Assembly: GCA_016202965.1 (NCBI GenBank) | Contig: JACQNQ010000028.1 | Location: forward strand, 1 to 35,376 | Origin: Candidatus Zambryskiibacteriota bacterium | GTDB taxonomy: Bacteria > Patescibacteriota > Minisyncoccia > Phycocordibacterales > DATDWN01 | Direction of reading: 5' to 3' | DNA length: 35,376 nt | Part shown: one piece after another, positions 2,771 to 18,989 of the stretch | Position numbering within the stretch: position 1 is the first letter of the stretch | How the letters are laid out: every line of letters starts with the position of its first letter | Notes under the pieces: model-generated | What the model was told of the DNA's origin: nothing | The model's input: the letters and a program-made list of their open reading frames with translations, nothing else | Database searches by the model: none | Made by a program: the position numbers and the translations under genes

Positions 2771-2783
2771 TTCATTGTAATTT

Positions 2784-2873
2784 AGTTTATAAAGTTGAAA
2801 GTTTTTAAAGTTTGTAAAGTAGAATGTATTTGATTTGACTTTATAAACTTTATAACTTTACGAACTTTTAACT
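2784..2873. repeat. family Y hairpin repeat (AAAGTT-unit arms), copy Y1
   Basis: Left arm AGTTTATAAAGTTGAAAGTTTTTAAAGTTTGTAAAGT, loop AGAATGTATTTGATTTG, right arm ACTTTATAAACTTTATAACTTTACGAACTTTTAACT. About 85% identical to copy Y2 at 6027-6119. Confidence 0.85.
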
Positions 2874-2876
2874 GTT

Positions 2877-3332: not shown

Positions 3333-5453
<2,121 letters not shown>

Positions 5454-5462
5454 TTTTATATT

Positions 5463-6020
5463 TTAATACGTTAACGTTACTCCTCTCTCAAAGCGTCGGG
5501 AAGCCGATGTGTCGCAAGTGTTATACCCCCTGGAATCCACCGTGGTGCGTCCGTCTGACAATTTCGTCACTCTGACAATAGCGCATCCTTTTGCAAAACT
5601 TAACCAAAAAATACTGGTTGGACGCGTGTTGCCTCCTCCGCCAATTAAACTTGGCTGTGCCGGTATTGTCGGTACTGTTTGATTATTTGGAGGATTGGTT
5701 GAAATGGTTTGACCATTACAACTAATTGTTTGGGTACTGGAGATATCAAAAGCGCTTTTAGGAGCATTGGCGTTCGGAGGGTTGGTATTTCTTAAATCCC
5801 AAAAGAAAGCGCACTCCGCGCCGCTGTCAGCTGAATAAAAAGCGTATTGCGATTCCTCGGCGGCAAAAGTTAAAACCAGTTGTTTGACGGCAATATTGAC
5901 CACCACAAAACTGACAAGCAAAAGTATGGATGTGACAATAGTGGCAACAAGCAATGTGAAACCCCTACTCAAATTTGTTTTCGTAGTATGCAGTATTTCT
6001 TTGCTTTGTAATATTTTCAT
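5463..6020 (-). CDS. minor pilin / PilX-like pseudopilin (no Glu5)
   Basis: 185 aa. The N-terminus SRGFTLLVATIVTSILLLVSFVV resembles a prepilin leader plus hydrophobic helix but lacks E at +5. It is the last gene of the pilin cluster. Confidence 0.65.
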   Translation of the reverse strand: MKILQSKEILHTTKTNLSRGFTLLVATIVTSILLLVSFVVVNIAVKQLVLTFAAEESQYAFYSADSGAECAFFWDLRNTNPPNANAPKSAFDISSTQTISCNGQTISTNPPNNQTVPTIPAQPSLIGGGGNTRPTSIFWLSFAKGCAIVRVTKLSDGRTTVDSRGYNTCDTSASRRFERGVTLTY

Positions 6021-6026
6021 ATATTT

Positions 6027-6119
6027 AGTTTATAAATTTATAAAGTTTTTAAAGTTTGTAAATTGGAATGTGAATTTGAATCTACTTTATGAACTTTATA
6101 ACTTTATGAACTTTCAACT
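6027..6119. repeat. family Y hairpin repeat, copy Y2
   Basis: AGTTTATAAATTTATAAAGTTTTTAAAGTTTGTAAAT / loop TGGAATGTGAATTTGAATCT / ACTTTATGAACTTTATAACTTTATGAACTTTCAACT. Confidence 0.85.
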
Positions 6120-6121
6120 GC

Positions 6122-6661
6122 TCATTGATGATTAAAAAGTAACTCGCTGATTTGGAACGACTTAGTGACGCCTCTATTTAACCAGCTGATATTAATCAGC
6201 GCTTTAACTTCACTGGCTGAAATTGATTGAAACTGTATCTCGCGCTTAAAATTTAACTGCGTCCAGCCGGAAGTGTAACCGTAAAGACCGGTGGACGGAC
6301 TCTGTCTTATGTTCGGACAAGAGCCAAACCCGCCGGAGCAAGCGGCTGTGGTTTTTAAGGGAGAGTCAATGGTGCATGTTTTGCCAAAAAAACACGGGTC
6401 TCCCGCGCTAGCTGAAAGTGAAGCCAGCCAGTTTGTCGGCGTTCCGCTTACGGAACGCAAAGCATTTTCATCCCGGATGTTTCTGATAAATTCCATTCCT
6501 TCTTGAGCAAGCCAAAAAGCGGTTACTTGGTCTTTGGCTATTGTGGAGGATTGAATGCCGCTTTGCACCGCCGTAAAAGTGGCGGCAATGGACATAGTCA
6601 AGATACTAATGGCCACAAGCGTTTCAACTAGTGTGAAACCTCTAGAGAATTTTGTTTTCAT
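6122..6661 (-). CDS. type IV minor pilin / pseudopilin (prepilin-type N-terminal cleavage/methylation domain)
   Basis: 179 aa. MKTKFSRGFTLVETLVAISILTMSIA contains the G|FTLxE motif plus a hydrophobic helix. Confidence 0.8.
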   Translation of the reverse strand: MKTKFSRGFTLVETLVAISILTMSIAATFTAVQSGIQSSTIAKDQVTAFWLAQEGMEFIRNIRDENALRSVSGTPTNWLASLSASAGDPCFFGKTCTIDSPLKTTAACSGGFGSCPNIRQSPSTGLYGYTSGWTQLNFKREIQFQSISASEVKALINISWLNRGVTKSFQISELLFNHQ

Positions 6662-6792
6662 AATTTAATTATACTACAAAATTCTTCTGGTGGTGGTAAT
6701 AGCCACATCCGCAAAATCTCTTTCAGCATATTCATAACGTAAAAACTTAATTTATTGGTAGACTCTTTTTTTATTTTCTAAATTTTTAAAAT

Positions 6793-7442: not shown

Positions 7443-7474
7443 AATTTAATTATACTTTAAACCAGCTAGAATTT

Positions 7475-7603: not shown

Positions 7604-8187
7604 TGTACGGAAATTTGACCTGTGGACTGTACGGTCACAGTCTCGGTTTTCCCTTTCGGCGAAATCAGGATAACCTTTCCAATCAGAGCGCCTCCGACTG
7701 AAGCTCCGCTACTATTTGAAAAATTAATTTTAGCATCCGGATTTGGCCGCTTAAATGTGACTTGAATACCGGAAACTTCCGGTATCGGACAGCTTGCCCC
7801 GCATATTTGAGAAATTTTTATGCCGTTACGAAAAGTCATTTTTTCAACACATTCGGTCGATGAACTGCCGCATCCGCTGTTAACGTCATATAAATTGTTG
7901 CTATTTTTATCCACAAAAATATAATAATTAGTCGGGTCAGTCGCACTAAAATAAATGCCGTAAGCCAAATCAAATTGTCCGCTGCCGACAGATACTTCTT
8001 TGACGGACAAACCGTATGTTTGGGATTTCCTTACTCCGATAGCCAGTTCTTGGCCAGCAGAAGTCAACGCCAAATTATCATTAAATGTCCCGTAATTCCA
8101 AAGTACGGTTACCATAATGAGACTGACAATGCTGACAGAAACCATAAGCTCAATTAAGGTGAAACCAAGCTTAGTTATAAAGTTCAT
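7600..8187 (-). CDS. type IV minor pilin (GspH/FimT-like, tentative)
   Basis: 195 aa. [25 protein letters not shown] carries the prepilin motif. Its start overlaps the pilD stop (ATGA). Confidence 0.8.
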
Positions 8188-9056
8188 AAAGTTATAAAGT
8201 TTATAAAGTCATTCAAACCCAAGATATCAATGTGAGTGAAGAAAATTATAACGGTGGCAAGAACAAGAAAAGGAGCGAACGGCACTTCTGAATGAAGATT
8301 TACTTTTTGACTGACTGTTTTAGTCAATCGGCTGTGAATAAACAGGTAAATGCTCCATATGGCGCCGAGCCAGAAAGCCAGTATAACCGCGGATATGCCA
8401 AGAATAAAACCTAAAAGAGCGCCTATGCCAAAAACTAATTTTAAATCGCCAAAGCCAATCCATCTGCCTTTGGACAAAAGCCAGAGCAAAAGAAGAGGCA
8501 TAAATAAGATAAGCGGAGAGAGCAAATCAAAAATCCCTACCCGAGTGATTATAAAATTCTTGGAATAGAAAAATAATAAAAGTTTTATGACGGCCAATAT
8601 AATAAAGATGTACACAAAGATATTGGGAATGACTTTGTGCCGAATGTCGTAGATGACAATAACCAAGAGCAGACTGAAAACAAAAGCGTAATAAATAAAA
8701 AATAAGACTGAATAGAGCAGGCCGTACTGAAAACCGCTGTAGAGAGGCCACAAGTAGAATTGTCTCAAGGCGATACCCACAAAAATAAGGCCGGTCAAGA
8801 GTTCAACCAAAGGGTACTGCCATGATATTTTGGACTTGCAACGAGAACATTTGCCGGAAAGAAAAAGAAACGAAATAATCGGCACGAGTTCACGCCACGA
8901 AAGCTTGGCATTGCAAGTCAGGCAACGCGAACGGCCGAACAAAGGAGATGCGCCGGTGTTATAACGCAGTGAAATGACGTTTATAAAACTGCCAACGATT
9001 GTTCCTAAAATAAATATAAAGACTAAAGATATGACATCCATTTGTTTATTATACAA
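8184..9056 (-). CDS. pilD: prepilin peptidase (A24 family)
   Basis: 290 aa polytopic membrane protein. N-terminal Cys pairs (CLTCNAKL...CSRCKSKI) and the aspartyl-protease motif GFGDLKL. Confidence 0.9.
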
Positions 9057-9129: not shown

Positions 9130-9537
9130 TTATGGACAAACAGTGGTTGTAACCGGACCTGTTGGCTTAGCCGACCCCGTGCTATCTACGCACCAATATC
9201 CGCTGGATTTCAGTGGAGCGCTTGCCGCCCAAGCTCCGCTAGCGTCAAAACAAGCGTCTGACGTTGTGTTGCCCGCGCCCGCCATACTTGCCGCATCAAG
9301 TCCTTTTGCAACATTCGGGTCTTCTGGGCAAACACCGGCATAGCTGCCATTGGTGCCGTCATAGACAAGTTCAGCTTGAGCTCGGATATTATTGAGATTA
9401 GCTTTGACCGCCGCATCTGCTCCTTTATTCCTTGCGTTATTGAGAGAAGCCAGCACAACCGAAGAAAGAATGCCGATGATAGCGATAACCACTAAAAGCT
9501 CTATTAGAGTGAAACCGCCAATGAATTTTTTTCTCAT
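9130..9537 (-). CDS. major type IV pilin (PilA-like)
   Basis: 135 aa. MRKKFIGGFTLIELLVVIAIIGILSSVVLASL is the canonical class III signal peptide plus alpha1 helix. The C-terminal domain has four Cys. The gene has its own terminator. Confidence 0.85.
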   Translation of the reverse strand: MRKKFIGGFTLIELLVVIAIIGILSSVVLASLNNARNKGADAAVKANLNNIRAQAELVYDGTNGSYAGVCPEDPNVAKGLDAASMAGAGNTTSDACFDASGAWAASAPLKSSGYWCVDSTGSAKPTGPVTTTVCP

Positions 9538-9628
9538 ATTATATAAATTTATTAATATTATGTAAGGTCCCTGTATTGTATAACGAAAGTCTAAGTGTGG
9601 AAAGTCATTCTGTGGATAAATGCACGCC

Positions 9629-9709
9629 TATCCCTTAGCTAGCGGCATAATTTTTTAAAGTCCTCGGAAAAAATCCCTAGACTTTAAAAAATTATGTCGC
9701 TAAGGGATA
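9629..9709. repeat. long near-perfect hairpin between the GC-rich unit and the pilin gene
   Basis: TATCCCTTAGC..CATAATTTTTTAAAGTC (left) pairs with GACTTTAAAAAATTATG..GCTAAGGGATA (right), about 33 bp per arm. Loop is CTCGGAAAAAATCC. Confidence 0.85.
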
Positions 9710-9722
9710 ACGGTCAATAAAT

Positions 9723-9774
9723 AAAAAAACCACCCTGCGGATGCACACTTGCGTGTGCATCCGCCCGAGGGTGG
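9723..9774 (-). terminator. strong intrinsic terminator of the GC-rich transcript
   Basis: The minus strand reads CCACCCTCGGGCGGATGCACAC-GCAA-GTGTGCATCCGC-AGGGTGG followed by TTTTTTT. Confidence 0.85.
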
Positions 9775-9969
9775 ATTGCGACTCGTTCGCTTTGCCTATC
9801 GGCTCGACCGGCACCTAAGTGCGGTCGGGGCGATTCGTGGCAAGCCGGCGGATGGCCGACGCGGGAATTTGTATCCATAAAGCCCGCAGTAGCCTGTCGC
9901 CGTGATGAGCGAAGAGTCGGTTTACGAGCCGCGGAATTGCGGCTCGTTCTCGCCGGCGCGCGCCGATGC

Positions 9970-10089
9970 CTAGTTGGCTCGAGTGGCGCTGCCGATGTCG
10001 TCGAACGCGGTCGTCGCGGTTGTCGCAAATAATGTGATATCGTGGGTCAAGGAACTGGTCGGCGGACTCTTGCTGTTGAGATACTTCAT
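9970..10089 (-). CDS. SD-led 39-codon small ORF inside the GC-rich transcript (hypothetical)
   Basis: AGGAGGTG (10093-10100, minus strand) lies 3 nt before the ATG. Translation is MKYLNSKSPPTSSLTHDITLFATTATTAFDDIGSATRAN, with a TAG stop. It is below the ORF-track length cutoff. Confidence 0.4.
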   Translation of the reverse strand: MKYLNSKSPPTSSLTHDITLFATTATTAFDDIGSATRAN

Positions 10090-10169
10090 GGTCACCTCCT
10101 GATGTGTGACGTTGCCGTCACTGGTCGGGTTGGAAACGTGAAAAAAATCAAATCAAAAGTTACGTTAAA

Positions 10170-10198
10170 AGTATAGCATTTCTTACACTTTACGTCAA
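10170..10198 (-). promoter_or_regulatory. near-consensus sigma70 promoter (TTGACG-17 nt-TATACT)
   Basis: The reverse complement gives TTGACG at 10193-10198, exactly 17 nt of spacer, and TATACT at 10170-10175. Confidence 0.65.
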
Positions 10199-10323
10199 GC
10201 GATTTTCGTGTCAAAACTCATTTTCTTTTTTCAATGTTAAAAATATGGCTTAAAATAAGGTTTATTTTAGACAGTCTTCAAAATGACTTATATTTTGCCC
10301 TTAGAAATTTAACTCATTTAATA

Positions 10324-10522
10324 AAATAATTATCAACAGTATACTGTGGGTAATTATTTTGTATACTTTGTAATTTGGTATAATATACTGTATCAAATTA
10401 ATTAACGTAAGAATTTTTATATAAACTTTCTTTTTTATTTCTTAACTATACGATATATCGTATAGTTAAGAAACGCTCAAAATTAGAAATTTATAATTTG
10501 GTACAATATACTGTACCAAATT
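10324..10522. repeat. cluster of palindromes and TATACTGT-containing repeats in a ~330-nt non-coding tract
   Basis: AAAATAATTATCAACAGTATACTGTGGGTAATTATTTT is a hairpin with an ACAGTATACTGT core. AATTTGGTATAATATACTGTATCAAATT (about 10372-10399) recurs as AATTTGGTACAATATACTGTACCAAATT (10495-10522). Confidence 0.8.
10438..10473. repeat. family P perfect palindrome, copy P2
   Basis: TTTCTTAACTATACGATATATCGTATAGTTAAGAAA is a 36-nt perfect palindrome with the same ACGATATATCGT centre as P1. Confidence 0.9.
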
Positions 10523-10525
10523 AAA

Positions 10526-11011: not shown

Positions 11012-11064
11012 AAGAAATTATAAAATAATCACTTAACAGAACTTCCAGATTTGGATGAAATCCG

Positions 11065-11132
11065 AGGCGGACGAGAAAAAGAATTGGGGGCGTACTGTAG
11101 TACGGTGACAATTATTTTTTGAAGTCCAACAA
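11065..11132 (+). repeat. family Z conserved block, copy Z2 (upstream of the DsbA-like gene)
   Basis: AGGCGGACGAGAAAAAGAATTGG..(CGTACT-GT-AGTACG hairpin)..GGTGACAATTATTTTTTGAAGTCCAACAA. The 22-nt and 29-nt flanks are nearly identical to Z3, differing at one base of the 5' flank (C in Z2, T in Z3). Confidence 0.8.
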
Positions 11133-11246
11133 AGGTGAGGAGTGATGTTATCACTTCGCAAGACCTTGAACGTTTTGTAATCAAAATGTGAAAGGTGTAC
11201 TGCTCCTGTAAGGAGTTCGCCAAATGTGGAAGTTCATATACTCACA

Positions 11247-14732: not shown

Positions 14733-15335
14733 ATGAACGAAGAAAAAATACCTCCATCACCTCAAAAAAAACTGGCCTTCGTTGAAATAGTAAAAGAGAT
14801 TGTCATATTTGCCATGATTGCTTTCGGTATCGTCCTTCCTTTCCGTCTATACATTGCCGAGCCGTATATTGTGGACGGAGCATCAATGGACCCGACATTT
14901 CATACAGGAGACTATCTCATCGTGGACAAACTTTCATACGAAATAGGAAAACCTCAGAGAAACACCGTGGTTATTTTTAGATATCCGAACGACCCCAGAA
15001 AAAGTTTTATCAAACGCATCGTCGGACTGCCGGGCGAGACAATAACCATGAAAGACAATGTTGTCATTGTAATCAATCCGGAAAATCCAAAAGGCCTGAA
15101 TTTAGACCAGTCATATGTTGTTCACAAATGTTTGAAAACGACAAACAACTGTGTCATTTCATTTGAAGAAACTCTTGGAGTTGACGAGTACTATGTTTTG
15201 GGAGACAACAGAGCGGAAAGTTTTGACTCCCGTTCATGGGGACCGTTAAATAAAAAATACTTGCTGGGCAAACCGATACTCCAGTTGTGGCCGTTAAAAC
15301 AAATCAGTCTGTTTCCCGGAAAAGACAGAAAGTAG
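14733..15335 (+). CDS. lepB: signal peptidase I (S26)
   Basis: GASMDPTF (catalytic Ser), FIKRIVGLPGE (catalytic Lys box) and GDNRAESFDSRSWG. The ORF track opens at a GTG at 14700; the ATG at 14733 is the preferred start. Confidence 0.9.
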   Translation: MNEEKIPPSPQKKLAFVEIVKEIVIFAMIAFGIVLPFRLYIAEPYIVDGASMDPTFHTGDYLIVDKLSYEIGKPQRNTVVIFRYPNDPRKSFIKRIVGLPGETITMKDNVVIVINPENPKGLNLDQSYVVHKCLKTTNNCVISFEETLGVDEYYVLGDNRAESFDSRSWGPLNKKYLLGKPILQLWPLKQISLFPGKDRK

Positions 15336-15336
15336 T

Positions 15337-15398
15337 AAAAAGTTCATAAAGTTAAAATAAATTTGCTTTACTTTACAAACTTTATAATTTTATAAACT
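15337..15398. repeat. family Y hairpin repeat, short copy Y3
   Basis: AAAAAGTTCATAAAGTTAAAA / TAAATTTGCTTT / ACTTTACAAACTTTATAATTTTATAAACT. Confidence 0.7.
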
Positions 15399-15404
15399 AA
15401 ATCT

Positions 15405-16538
15405 ATGAAACAACAAAAAATCAAAGGGGAAGGTTCTTATCTGGCTACCGAGTGTGATAAAGTTGGCGAGATTGCTTTGCATTACGGTTTTACCATAATC
15501 AAGCCGCCACAGATTAGCCCTTCGGATATTTCCAAAGCCAAGCAATTCAAGGATTTTGACTACTACAACGACGTCGAAGAAAAAGTGGCTTTAACCAGTT
15601 GGTATATTGATCGCGACCTTCACAACCAAAGTCAGCTGATAGCTATTCATTATAAAAAACCGCGCGAAAATTTATACAGTTTTGAGATTATGGGCAGTGA
15701 CAAAAGCATCAGCGAAGGACTGCTTTTAAAATGCGCTTTGGCGGTACTCTATGAACTTGGCTGGACAAATCTATATATAGACATAAACAGTATCGGGGAT
15801 AAAGAGTCGGTCGGAAAATTTGAACGAGAACTCGGAGCTTACTTTCGCAAACACACCCATACATTGTCGGCAAAATTAAATCAAAAATTCAGAAAAAATC
15901 ACTATTCTATACTGACTGATAACTCGCCTGAGAGCCAATCTTTCAGACAAGACGCTCCACAAACGGTTGGCTCACTGTCCGATATTGCCAGAGTCCATTT
16001 CAAAGAAGTTCTGGAGTTTCTGGAAACATTCAGTGTCGCTTATAAAATCAAACCGAATGTCTTATCCAATAAACTTTACGCTTCATATACCGTTTTTGAA
16101 ATACGAAACGATGACCAGTTATTGGCTTACGGTTACAGATACAACCACTTGGCCAGAAAAATTGGAGCAAAAAGAGATATACCGTCTGTCGGTCTGACGG
16201 TCCTGGTCAAAAAACAACCGAAGTTTTCCAAAAAAGTCATCATCAAAAATATAAAGAAACCGAAATTTTATCTGGTTCAACTCGGAGAAACGGCCAAACT
16301 GAAAGTTTTAAATGTCATAGAGATGCTTCGCAGGGAAAAAATTCCCGTCTATCACTCCATAACAAAAGATAAAATGGTGGGACAGCTTTCCGGCGCTGAA
16401 TATATGAAAGCTACACACGTTTTGGTCATGGGACAAAAAGAAGCTGTGGAAAACACAATGATAGTCCGCAGCATTGCAAGCCGTGAGCAAGAAACCGTGC
16501 CTTTGGACAAACTTGTTAAATTTTTAAAAAAGTTATAG
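15405..16538 (+). CDS. HisRS-like class II aminoacyl-tRNA synthetase homologue with degenerate catalytic motifs
   Basis: 377 aa. HisRS-type layout: EGLLLKCALAVLYELGWTNLYIDINSIGD and a C-terminal HGTP anticodon-binding-like domain (FYLVQLGE...THVLVMGQKE...VRSI). HYKKPRENLYSFEIMG replaces motif 2 (RYERPQ.GR.RQF.Q). AYGYRYNHL replaces GGRYD.L. The motif 3 Gly/Arg pattern is absent. Confidence 0.6.
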   Translation: MKQQKIKGEGSYLATECDKVGEIALHYGFTIIKPPQISPSDISKAKQFKDFDYYNDVEEKVALTSWYIDRDLHNQSQLIAIHYKKPRENLYSFEIMGSDKSISEGLLLKCALAVLYELGWTNLYIDINSIGDKESVGKFERELGAYFRKHTHTLSAKLNQKFRKNHYSILTDNSPESQSFRQDAPQTVGSLSDIARVHFKEVLEFLETFSVAYKIKPNVLSNKLYASYTVFEIRNDDQLLAYGYRYNHLARKIGAKRDIPSVGLTVLVKKQPKFSKKVIIKNIKKPKFYLVQLGETAKLKVLNVIEMLRREKIPVYHSITKDKMVGQLSGAEYMKATHVLVMGQKEAVENTMIVRSIASREQETVPLDKLVKFLKKL

Positions 16539-18876: not shown

Positions 18877-18989
18877 GACTTGCTCAGGTGGATGCAGTTC
18901 TAGTCTAGGCGGATGAGAAAAAGAATTGGAGCCTGCCTGAGTGCGTAGGTGACAATTATTTTTTGAAGTCCAACAACAAAATGCGCCGC
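18877..18989 (+). repeat. family Z element, copy Z3, in the ftsZ 5' region
   Basis: Outer stem GGACTTGC (18877-18884) / GCAAGTCC (18982-18989). The conserved block at 18907-18976 matches Z2 except for the central hairpin, which differs in sequence but still pairs (CCTGC...GCGTAGG). Confidence 0.8.

What the first reader, a model, noticed from the sequence alone, without database searches (positions are those of the whole stretch)
9723..10198. Self-contained GC-rich structured transcript (promoter, SD-led 39-codon ORF, multi-helix RNA, terminator) directly upstream of the major pilin gene
About 410 nt of roughly two-thirds G+C (61 of 90 in a hand-counted sample) lies in a genome that is otherwise about one-third G+C. 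On the minus strand it is framed by a near-consensus promoter (TTGACG-17-TATACT, 10170-10198) and a long GC-rich terminator with a T7 tail (9723-9774). The 5' end has a GNRA-capped hairpin (GTGACG-GCAA-CGTCAC) beside a perfect AGGAGGTG. An alternative GTCAC/GTGAC pairing would enclose that SD. The SD-led ORF encodes MKYLNSKSPPTSSLTHDITLFATTATTAFDDIGSATRAN and then runs into a set of properly nested long-range helices. Those helices are TTGCGAC/GTCGCAA, CGTTCG/CGAACG, ATCGGC/GCCGAT, GCCGGCG/CGCCGGC, CCGAC/GTCGG and GCGGG/CCCGC, plus a 9-bp local hairpin ACGAGCCGC/GCGGCTCGT. The only long ORF here (104 aa) is an Arg/Pro-rich wrong-frame artefact. I found no hallmark of RNase P (GGAAAGUCC), tmRNA (tRNA-like ends), SRP RNA (GGAA/AGCA helix 8) or a T-box. 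Downstream on the same strand come a large hairpin, a perfect DnaA-box-like 9-mer, and pilA. Possible explanations: a new structured ncRNA or riboswitch-like leader gating pilin expression, a dual-function sRNA, or a horizontally acquired fragment.
Basis: partly seen in the sequence, partly recalled or inferred. Interest (0 to 1): 0.8.

Follow-up and report, generated by a model that had tools for sequence, protein, structure and literature searches.

The report
Orphan GC-rich insert beside pilin gene
A 405-base GC-rich stretch with a plausible promoter, a short open reading frame and a very strong terminator really does sit upstream of the pilin gene of this Candidate Phyla Radiation (CPR) bacterium. 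It has no relative in any collection I could search and is absent from related genomes, so it looks like a recent foreign insertion rather than a demonstrable new regulatory RNA.

Summary
The sequence features are real. Window 9727-10131 is 60-61.5% G+C in a 40% G+C contig, 4.6 SD above the mean. On the minus strand a host-type extended -10 promoter (TTGACG-17-TGcTATACT) lies upstream, and a 19-bp, -36.7 kcal/mol terminator with a U7 tail ends it.

Rfam 15 and ARAGORN exclude RNase P, tmRNA, SRP, 6S, riboswitches, T-box and group I/II introns.

The element is an orphan. I found no DNA, RNA-structure or six-frame protein relative in any collection searched. It is also absent from every related Paceibacteria locus, on both the pilin side and the PAP2 side. 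It sits at a unique PAP2|pilA synteny breakpoint.

pilA keeps its own conserved promoter (TTATCCACA...-10) downstream of the terminator, so a leader gating pilin expression is not supported.

The 5' 250 nt show a strong codon-like period-3 G+C signal (p=1.5e-4) in the frame of the 39-codon ORF. That ORF has a perfect Shine-Dalgarno (SD) sequence in a host whose genes lack one. Folding excess is similar on both strands.

Best reading: a recently acquired, higher-GC, mRNA-like cassette or gene remnant. A new structured or dual-function RNA cannot be excluded, and cannot be tested without homologues.

The parts
9727..10131 (-). GC-rich island (60-61.5% G+C), the core of the orphan insertion
   Evidence: the richest 400-nt window in the contig, +4.6 SD. 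No homologue in any search.
10170..10198 (-). Promoter-like site TTGACG-17-TATACT with TG extension (TGCTATACT). The transcription start is inferred near 10163.
   Evidence: 10 of 12 matches. Host genes show similar extended -10 boxes, TGnTATACT or TATAAT. Promoter-like sites are frequent in this AT-rich DNA, so this is inferred, not shown.
10106..10121 (-). 5' hairpin GUGACG-GCAA-CGUCAC
   Evidence: Pairing probability 0.998. The 51-nt context is not exceptional (z -1.06).
10092..10100 (-). Shine-Dalgarno-like AGGAGGUGA, ending 2 nt before the ATG (5 nt after the AGGAGG core)
   Evidence: None of 28 host genes in the window has a comparable SD.
9970..10089 (-). 39-codon ORF (MKYLNSKSPPTSSLTHDITLFATTATTAFDDIGSATRAN) plus TAG stop
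   Evidence: Period-3 G+C by codon position is 0.35/0.55/0.75. The period-3 Fourier signal for 9970-10131 was exceeded by 0 of 2000 shuffles. No protein or Pfam relative.
9924..9947 (-). 9-bp hairpin ACGAGCCGC-AAUUCC-GCGGCUCGU
   Evidence: -18.2 kcal/mol, z -5.9. Pairing probability 0.99.
9861..9887 (-). Hairpin GCGGG...CCCGC
   Evidence: Pairing probability 0.999.
9805..9827 (-). Hairpin CGACCGCAC-UUAG-GUGCCGGUCG
   Evidence: -13.4 kcal/mol, z -3.1.
9723..9774 (-). Intrinsic terminator: 19-bp G+C-rich stem, GCAA loop, U7 tail
   Evidence: -36.7 kcal/mol, z -7.4. Also found by the terminator scan.
9621..9716 (.). Long AT-rich hairpin between the terminator and the pilA promoter. It is part of the lineage-specific DNA but not of the GC island.
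   Evidence: -45.2 kcal/mol, z -8.8. It gave only chance miRNA-type Rfam matches. Similar long AT-rich palindromes occur in intergenic DNA of relatives.
9611..9619 (-). TTATCCACA box of the pilA promoter region. It marks the pilin-side limit of conserved DNA.
   Evidence: the same 9-mer in the same orientation lies a median of 119 nt upstream of major-pilin genes in 45 of 70 related loci.

Best explanation
The element is a lineage-specific insertion of foreign, higher-GC DNA. It lies at the point where, in this genome only, the pilA-peptidase-minor-pilin block has been joined to the DUF2779-DsbA-PAP2 block.

It has the layout of a small mRNA-like unit:
- A host-type extended -10 promoter in the AT-rich flank (inferred).
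- A 5' hairpin and a perfect SD.
- A 39-codon ORF with codon-like composition.
- About 200 nt of hairpin-rich 3' sequence.
- A very strong intrinsic terminator (shown as sequence and fold).

Most likely it is a small gene or gene remnant, with its downstream hairpins and terminator, captured from a donor of about 60% G+C that uses SD-led translation. This is inferred from the period-3 signal, the GC3-like phase, the RNY pattern and the SD. If it is transcribed, transcription stops before pilA. pilA is driven by its own conserved promoter, so the element's only likely effect on pilA is to insulate it from upstream transcription. The function of the peptide or RNA, if any, is unknown, and it may be decaying.
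For: Orphan status:
- No relative in Rfam, plasmids, phages or E. coli.
- None in JGI metagenomes, scanned with 12 degenerate 24-nt patterns, or in IMG/VR.
- None in a six-frame search of 5.8 billion protein clusters.
- None in 1.3 Mb of 95 related loci by blastn, nhmmer or a covariance model.

Synteny:
- Relatives with 72-77% identical pilin have pilC or another pilin directly upstream, with a roughly 135-nt spacer.
- Relatives with 83% identical PAP2 have an RNase H-like gene and HisRS downstream.
- Only about 9620-10431 is new DNA in this genome.

Coding-like signal:
- Period-3 G+C signal in 9880-10131: 0.46/0.77/0.56 by phase, p=1.5e-4, and p=3.4e-4 with the 9-nt repeat masked. The adjacent AT-rich spacer shows none (p=0.58).
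- Purine at codon position 1 is 0.66 and pyrimidine at position 3 is 0.60 in the ORF frame.
- Host GC3 is 0.32-0.48, against 0.75 for the ORF.
- 0 of 28 host genes have an SD, and many look leaderless.

Other:
- The terminator is far beyond chance.
- An independent assembler reproduces both junctions exactly (Logan contig L001, 100% over 1876 nt).
Against: - No donor or homologue was found, so foreign origin rests on composition and absence from relatives only.
- Host structural RNAs are also GC-rich (tRNAs 56-58%), so high G+C alone does not prove foreignness.
- Stop codons are not depleted (19 observed, 19.1 expected).
- The frame carrying the period-3 signal has in-frame stops beyond the 39 codons.
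- The core folds better than shuffles (z about -3, and -4.7 for 9776-10031), which is unusual for plain coding DNA.
- The promoter is host-like, which could mean a native gene.
The metagenome scans need near-identity within 24-nt windows. Relatives of 70-85% identity located elsewhere in other genomes would therefore have been missed.
Confidence: 0.45

Rival explanations
1. A genuine lineage-specific structured ncRNA, or a dual-function RNA in the manner of S. aureus RNAIII or B. subtilis SR1. It would be transcribed from its own promoter, encode a small peptide, and act through its hairpins on other RNAs or proteins.
For: - Promoter-like site and canonical terminator frame a roughly 440-nt unit on one strand.
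- MFE -179 kcal/mol, z -6.2 to -7.2 for the whole unit.
- Three robust hairpins, plus two GCAA tetraloops.
- G+C is similar to host tRNAs.
- G+C enrichment concentrated at synonymous sites is what a coding-plus-structure RNA in an AT-rich host would show.
Against: - No homologue, so no covariation can be tested.
- Absent from all related loci.
- Most of the folding excess comes from the terminator and local hairpins. The core z is only about -3 and is equal on both strands.
- The transcribed strand is C-rich and U-poor, which is atypical for structured RNAs.
Confidence: 0.25
2. A cis-acting leader, riboswitch-like or attenuator, that gates transcription into pilA.
For: It lies upstream of pilA on the same strand and ends in a terminator. 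The segment CAUCCGCC at about 9849-9856 could pair with the 5' arm of the terminator (read directly from the sequence).
Against: - The terminator forms with probability near 1 and has no competitive alternative in the ensemble.
- 185 nt, a 96-nt hairpin and a conserved pilA promoter box lie between the terminator and pilA.
- Relatives express pilA without any such leader.
- No riboswitch or T-box match even at E up to 10.
Confidence: 0.05
3. An assembly chimera or contaminant fragment in the MAG contig.
For: The composition is abrupt, and the element occurs only in this MAG and in one contig, probably from the same sample.
Against: - Two different assemblies give 100% identical sequence across both junctions.
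- A 405-nt foreign piece flanked on both sides by host-type DNA would need two chimeric joins.
- The U7 tail and flanking hairpins read as a natural arrangement.
Confidence: 0.05
4. A highly divergent copy of a housekeeping RNA (RNase P RNA, tmRNA, SRP RNA or 6S RNA).
For: The size (about 400 nt), the G+C richness in an AT-rich genome, and its own promoter and terminator.
Against: - No match to any of these Rfam models, even at E up to 10 on a 901-nt stretch with permissive filters.
- ARAGORN finds no tmRNA.
- No tRNA-like ends.
- Not conserved in relatives near this locus.
Confidence: 0.03

Closest known systems
Orphan (ORFan) horizontally acquired islets or gene remnants in bacterial genomes
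   Same: Compositional outlier, no homologues, absent from close relatives, placed at a synteny breakpoint, codon-like periodicity with atypical GC3, and translation signals foreign to the host.
   Different: Very small (405 nt). No mobility gene, repeat or att site was detected in the 35-kb contig. The donor is unknown.
Dual-function sRNAs (S. aureus RNAIII/hld, B. subtilis SR1/SR1P, E. coli SgrS/SgrT); comparison from general knowledge
   Same: A transcript of a few hundred nt with its own promoter and terminator, a short SD-led ORF and many hairpins.
   Different: Those RNAs are conserved within their genera and have shown targets. Here there is no homologue, no target and no expression data.
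Neisseria gonorrhoeae pilE-upstream G4-associated sRNA (PMC3547852, title and abstract seen)
   Same: A noncoding, G/C-biased transcription unit immediately upstream of the major pilin gene.
   Different: The island has no run of four G or C tracts able to form a G-quadruplex (read from the sequence). No similarity to pilin sequences that would suggest silent cassettes. It is oriented toward pilA and ends in a terminator.
GC-rich intergenic ncRNA candidates found by the GC-IGR approach (PMC6429828, PMC8632094, PMC11109978; titles and abstracts seen)
   Same: A long, unusually GC-rich intergenic region in an AT-rich genome. This is the criterion those pipelines use to nominate structured ncRNAs.
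   Different: Those candidates are accepted only with multiple representatives and covariation. This one has a single representative.

Membership tests
RNase P RNA / tmRNA / SRP RNA / 6S RNA | Match to the family covariance model; for tmRNA, a tRNA-like domain and tag ORF | tested here: not met
   No Rfam match at the gathering score or at E up to 10. ARAGORN finds tRNAs only.
Riboswitch / T-box leader | Conserved aptamer (Rfam model) directly coupled to an expression platform that controls the downstream gene | tested here: not met
   No Rfam match. The terminator has no competing fold. pilA has its own conserved promoter downstream of the terminator.
Group I / group II intron | Catalytic core matching RF00028 or RF00029 and related models | tested here: not met
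   No match at E up to 10. The same search does detect group I introns in relatives L004 and L007.
Structured ncRNA family (any) | Several homologues with covariation supporting a shared fold | not testable with these tools
   No homologue found. The only other copy, L001, is 100% identical.
Decayed fragment of a known protein gene | Significant translated similarity to a protein family | tested here: not met
   - Six-frame query against 5.8 billion clusters: nothing at E up to 1.
- tblastn against plasmids and phages: none.
- Pfam: none.
- phmmer of the antisense 42-aa ORF: only summed weak hits to internally repetitive proteins.
Protein-coding (or coding-derived) sequence | Three-base periodicity with the GC-richest phase at codon position 3, and an RNY bias | tested here: met
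   9880-10131: p=1.5e-4. ORF frame: GC3 0.75, purine at position 1 0.66, pyrimidine at position 3 0.60. Stop codons are not depleted.
Diversity-generating retroelement template repeat | A near-identical variable repeat in a target gene, and a reverse transcriptase nearby | tested here: not met
   No repeat of the island in the window. No reverse transcriptase among the window's proteins.
Silent pilin cassette (pilS-like) | Sequence similarity to the variable part of pilin genes | tested here: not met
   blastx against 120 related pilins gave only low-complexity hits with E of 0.28 or more.
Type I toxin-antitoxin | A small hydrophobic or membrane peptide, plus an overlapping antisense RNA with its own promoter | tested here: inconclusive
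   The 39-aa peptide is hydrophilic and rich in S, T and A. The antisense 42-aa ORF is hydrophobic but has no promoter, SD or homologue.
Integron cassette / MITE / IS remnant | An attC site (R'' RYYYAAC ... R' GTTRRRY), or terminal inverted repeats with a target duplication, or a transposase | tested here: not met
   No such motifs at the borders (sequence). No terminal inverted repeats involving the island. No transposase or integrase.

The most novel reading that the evidence does not exclude
The island is a functional, lineage-specific dual-function RNA of a CPR bacterium. It would be a structured RNA of about 440 nt that also encodes a 39-aa peptide, acquired or invented recently and placed next to the type IV pilus genes. 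It could then be a first example of RNAIII-like riboregulation in Patescibacteria.
Probability: 0.15. Interest if true: 0.6.

Novelty: new member of a known kind. Interest (0 to 1): 0.3.

Why it matters
As it stands, the finding is a well-defined orphan: a compact foreign-looking unit at a rearrangement junction in an ultra-small symbiont genome. CPR bacteria are thought to depend on pilus-mediated DNA uptake, so a captured higher-GC fragment sitting directly beside the pilus genes is a small, concrete case of foreign DNA becoming fixed in such a genome. If it turned out to be expressed and functional, it would be one of very few regulatory or dual-function RNAs known from this radiation. With a single representative, nothing about function can be claimed yet.

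The more generally useful by-products concern the host. Its genes lack SD sequences and many look leaderless. In addition, a perfect DnaA-box 9-mer is a conserved part of the major-pilin promoter region across Paceibacteria.

Tried and rejected
- Known RNA families: Rfam 15 at gathering score over the whole window, and at E up to 10 over 9500-10400. Only tRNAs, plus chance miRNA-type hits on the AT-rich hairpin. ARAGORN for tmRNA found none.
- DNA similarity: blastn (distant mode) against plasmids, phages and E. coli genomes found none.
- Related loci: blastn (word size 7) and nhmmer against 80 and then 15 more related loci matched only the identical contig L001. A covariance model of the 151-nt 3' domain, searched over 1.3 Mb, matched only itself.
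- Metagenome and viral scans: pseudo-protein queries back-translated to 24-nt degenerate patterns. Two JGI metagenome scans and two IMG/VR scans found nothing.
- Protein similarity: the six-frame concatenated protein search found nothing. The antisense 42-aa ORF gave only noise from internally repetitive proteins. Pfam on four translations found nothing. tblastn of a frame-corrected composite peptide against plasmids and phages found nothing.
- Diversity-generating retroelement idea: rejected, with no repeat and no reverse transcriptase.
- Silent pilin cassette idea: rejected.
- Stop-codon depletion as evidence of coding: not found.
- GC-rich islands upstream of pilins as a general feature: checked in 163 pilin-like genes. 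The window is the extreme outlier. Other cases are pilin C-termini or unrelated small ORFs.
- Literature: searches found no described CPR RNA of this kind.

Full report
**What the window is**

The window is a complete 35,376-nt contig of an NCBI MAG named Candidatus Zambryskibacteria, in the Paceibacteria/Parcubacteria part of the CPR. Its pilin is MBI4155893.1. It carries housekeeping genes (ligA, ftsA, ftsZ, secA, pth, aminoacyl-tRNA synthetases) and a type IV pilin block: pilA at 9537-9130, a prepilin peptidase at 9056-8184, and four minor-pilin-like genes. No reverse transcriptase, integrase or transposase is present.

**Checking the observation**

The compositional anomaly is real. Window 9730-10129 is 61.5% G+C against a contig mean of 40.0% (sd 4.7% for 400-nt windows), and it is the top window in the contig. 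The flanking intergenic DNA is 21-28%.

On the minus strand the scan finds TTGACG-17-TATACT with a TG extension at 10198-10170. Host genes carry similar extended -10 boxes, so the promoter is of host type. However, promoter-like hexamers are three times more common in this AT-rich stretch than in shuffles (17 against 5.8), so it remains an inference.

The terminator at 9774-9723 is beyond doubt as a sequence feature: a 19-bp stem, a GCAA loop, -36.7 kcal/mol, z -7.4, followed by U7.

The GCAA-capped 5' hairpin, the AGGAGGTGA ending 2 nt before the ATG, the 39-codon ORF and the 9-bp hairpin are all as described.

In the unconstrained ensemble, four of them have pairing probabilities of 0.01 or less, and the fifth (GCCGGCG/CGCCGGC) has 0.05. 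Forcing all the listed helices costs 6.8 kcal/mol relative to the MFE.

The whole unit folds at z -6.2 to -7.2. Without the terminator the core is at z -3.2 on the minus strand and -2.9 on the plus strand. There is therefore more structure than composition predicts. Most of it is a handful of local hairpins, and it does not tell the strands apart.

**What it is not**

- Rfam 15 gives nothing at gathering score, and nothing for the island at E up to 10 on a 901-nt stretch. The only matches are chance miRNA-type hits to the neighbouring 96-nt AT-rich hairpin.
- ARAGORN finds no tmRNA.
- The same Rfam search does detect group I introns in two relatives, so the negative is not a general failure in this lineage.
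- No copy of the island, direct or inverted, exists elsewhere in the contig. This, together with the lack of a reverse transcriptase, rules out a template repeat of a diversity-generating retroelement.
- blastx against 120 related pilins gives only low-complexity noise, so it is not a silent pilin cassette.

**Orphan status**

The only other copy I could find is a 1,894-nt Logan contig from run SRR12113383. It is 100% identical over 1,876 nt, including both borders of the island. It is probably from the same sample, so it is an independent assembly rather than an independent organism.

Every other search was negative:
- blastn against plasmids, phages and E. coli.
- Two JGI metagenome scans and two IMG/VR scans with twelve and twelve degenerate 24-nt patterns.
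- A six-frame protein query against 5.8 billion clusters.
- tblastn of a frame-corrected composite peptide.
- Pfam.
- An exhaustive phmmer of the antisense 42-aa ORF, which returned only summed weak hits to internally repetitive proteins.
- blastn, nhmmer and a covariance model over 1.3 Mb of 95 related loci.

These searches have limits, which I state plainly. The pattern scans need near-identity within 24-nt windows. The public-genome collection could not be scanned with the element itself. The protein databases would only hold a relative if a gene caller had called an ORF there.

**Context**

- Pilin side: relatives whose pilin is 72-77% identical have the order pilB, response regulator, pilT, pilC, (pilin), pilin, peptidase, minor pilins, ligA, with only about 135 nt upstream of the pilin. 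More distant relatives have pilC directly upstream, with variable spacers of 290-535 nt.
- PAP2 side: relatives whose PAP2 is 83% identical (GW2011_GWF2_39_8b and identical contigs from many samples) have DnaG, sigma-70, DUF2779, DsbA and PAP2, followed by an RNase H-like gene and HisRS. A 78% relative shares the PAP2 terminator palindrome at 10432-10472 and then diverges.

The PAP2|pilA junction is therefore unique to this genome. The DNA between about 9620 and 10431 is new, and the island sits inside it.

On the pilin side, conserved DNA begins at TTATCCACA (9619-9611). The same 9-mer, in the same orientation, lies a median of 119 nt upstream of a major-pilin-like gene in 45 of 70 loci, against 0.011 expected per 250 nt. 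pilA thus keeps its own promoter region downstream of the island's terminator. This, with the absence of the element from all relatives, argues against a leader or riboswitch gating pilin expression.

**Coding-like signal**

The island has a three-base periodicity in G+C:
- Over 9727-10131 the three phases are 0.70/0.64/0.48, p=6e-4.
- Over 9880-10131 they are 0.46/0.77/0.56, p=1.5e-4, or p=3.4e-4 when a 9-nt tandem repeat is masked.
- A Fourier test on 9970-10131 was exceeded by none of 2000 shuffles, a signal comparable to real host genes. The AT-rich spacer shows none.
- The GC-rich phase is the third codon position of the 39-codon ORF (GC1/2/3 = 0.35/0.55/0.75). Host genes have GC3 of 0.32-0.48.
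- In that frame, position 1 is 66% purine and position 3 is 60% pyrimidine. This is the usual RNY bias, and it favours the minus strand over the antisense frame.
- The trend continues about 40 nt upstream of the ATG and about 90 nt past the stop, though not significantly on its own. The last 150 nt favour another phase (p=0.025).

Stop codons are not depleted (19 observed, 19.1 expected).

None of 28 host genes in the window has an SD, and many have a -10 box 6-8 nt before the ATG, which suggests leaderless mRNAs. The perfect SD of the small ORF is therefore foreign to the host's style.

**Interpretation**

Taken together, the most economical reading is a recently acquired piece of higher-GC DNA, fixed at a rearrangement junction. 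It would be a small gene or gene remnant with its downstream hairpins and terminator, possibly transcribed from a host-type promoter. I put this at about 0.45.

A functional lineage-specific structured or dual-function RNA stays possible, at about 0.25. G+C enrichment restricted to synonymous sites is also what a coding-plus-structure RNA in an AT-rich host would show. It cannot be tested, however, because there is nothing to align.

The remaining options:
- A pilA leader: about 0.05.
- An assembly chimera: about 0.05.
- A divergent housekeeping RNA: about 0.03.

**Verdict**

The favoured interpretations (a new multi-helix ncRNA, or a riboswitch for pilin) are not supported. The interest is modest: the element is real, clean and unexplained, but it has a single representative and no evidence of function.

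Noticed in passing
window 9611-9619 (- strand); e.g. L082 1268-1276, L084 3870-3878, L086 147-155, L087 2329-2337, L004 9135-9143, L002 9326-9334: The perfect DnaA-box consensus TTATCCACA is a conserved element upstream of major-pilin genes in Paceibacteria. It occurs in the same orientation, a median of 119 nt (range 82-228) before the ATG, in 45 of 70 loci, against 0.011 expected per 250 nt. It may be a binding site for DnaA or another regulator that controls pilin transcription.
   Followed up: partly
window, upstream of 28 genes (e.g. 6662-6690, 7443-7470, 11012-11040, 1179-1210): None of the host genes has a Shine-Dalgarno sequence. Many have a TATAAT or TGnTATACT box ending 6-8 nt before the ATG, which suggests that leaderless mRNAs are widespread in this organism.
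   Followed up: partly
window 10367-10401 and 10490-10524, flanking the hairpin at 10441-10470: Two copies (91% identical) of a 35-nt, internally palindromic sequence (TTTGTAATTTGGTATAATATACTGTATCAAATTAA) bracket the PAP2 terminator palindrome. The palindrome itself is 97.6% conserved in a relative with 78% identical PAP2 (L096 1137-1177); the repeats are not.
   Followed up: partly
window 11104-11132 and 18948-18976; window 11154-11212 vs L088 8681-8739; window 11049-11132 vs L088 11324-11412: A 29-nt exact repeat (GGTGACAATTATTTTTTGAAGTCCAACAA) lies in the PAP2-DsbA divergent spacer and again upstream of ftsZ. Adjacent pieces of that spacer are 80-93% identical to two unrelated intergenic places in a relative. 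This may be a short dispersed promoter or regulatory element.
   Followed up: no
L088 8372-9251: About 880 nt with no called gene and a strong positive GC skew (up to 0.36), between HisRS and a 69-aa ORF in the GW2011_GWF2_39_8b relative. No Rfam match at gathering score.
   Followed up: no
L037 6224-6544 and L028 9143-9421: Small, relatively GC-rich ORFs (107 and 93 codons), each followed by a terminator, lie directly upstream of the pilin promoter in two other Paceibacteria. They are unrelated in sequence to the window's island.
   Followed up: partly
L004 18626-18836 (-) and L007 18074-18374 (+): Group I catalytic introns (Rfam RF00028, 66 and 57 bits) near tRNA genes in two related genomes.
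   Followed up: no
window 5373-5442: A tandem array of a 7-nt unit (ACTTAGT; the repeat finder reported it as 14-nt-spaced copies) just upstream of the ligA start.
   Followed up: no
window 2779-2875, 6005-6123, 8176-8217, 15331-15426: A family of AT-rich repeats built on CTTTATAA(A/C)TTTATAA lies upstream of several genes, often directly abutting the ATG. It is probably a shared promoter architecture.
   Followed up: no
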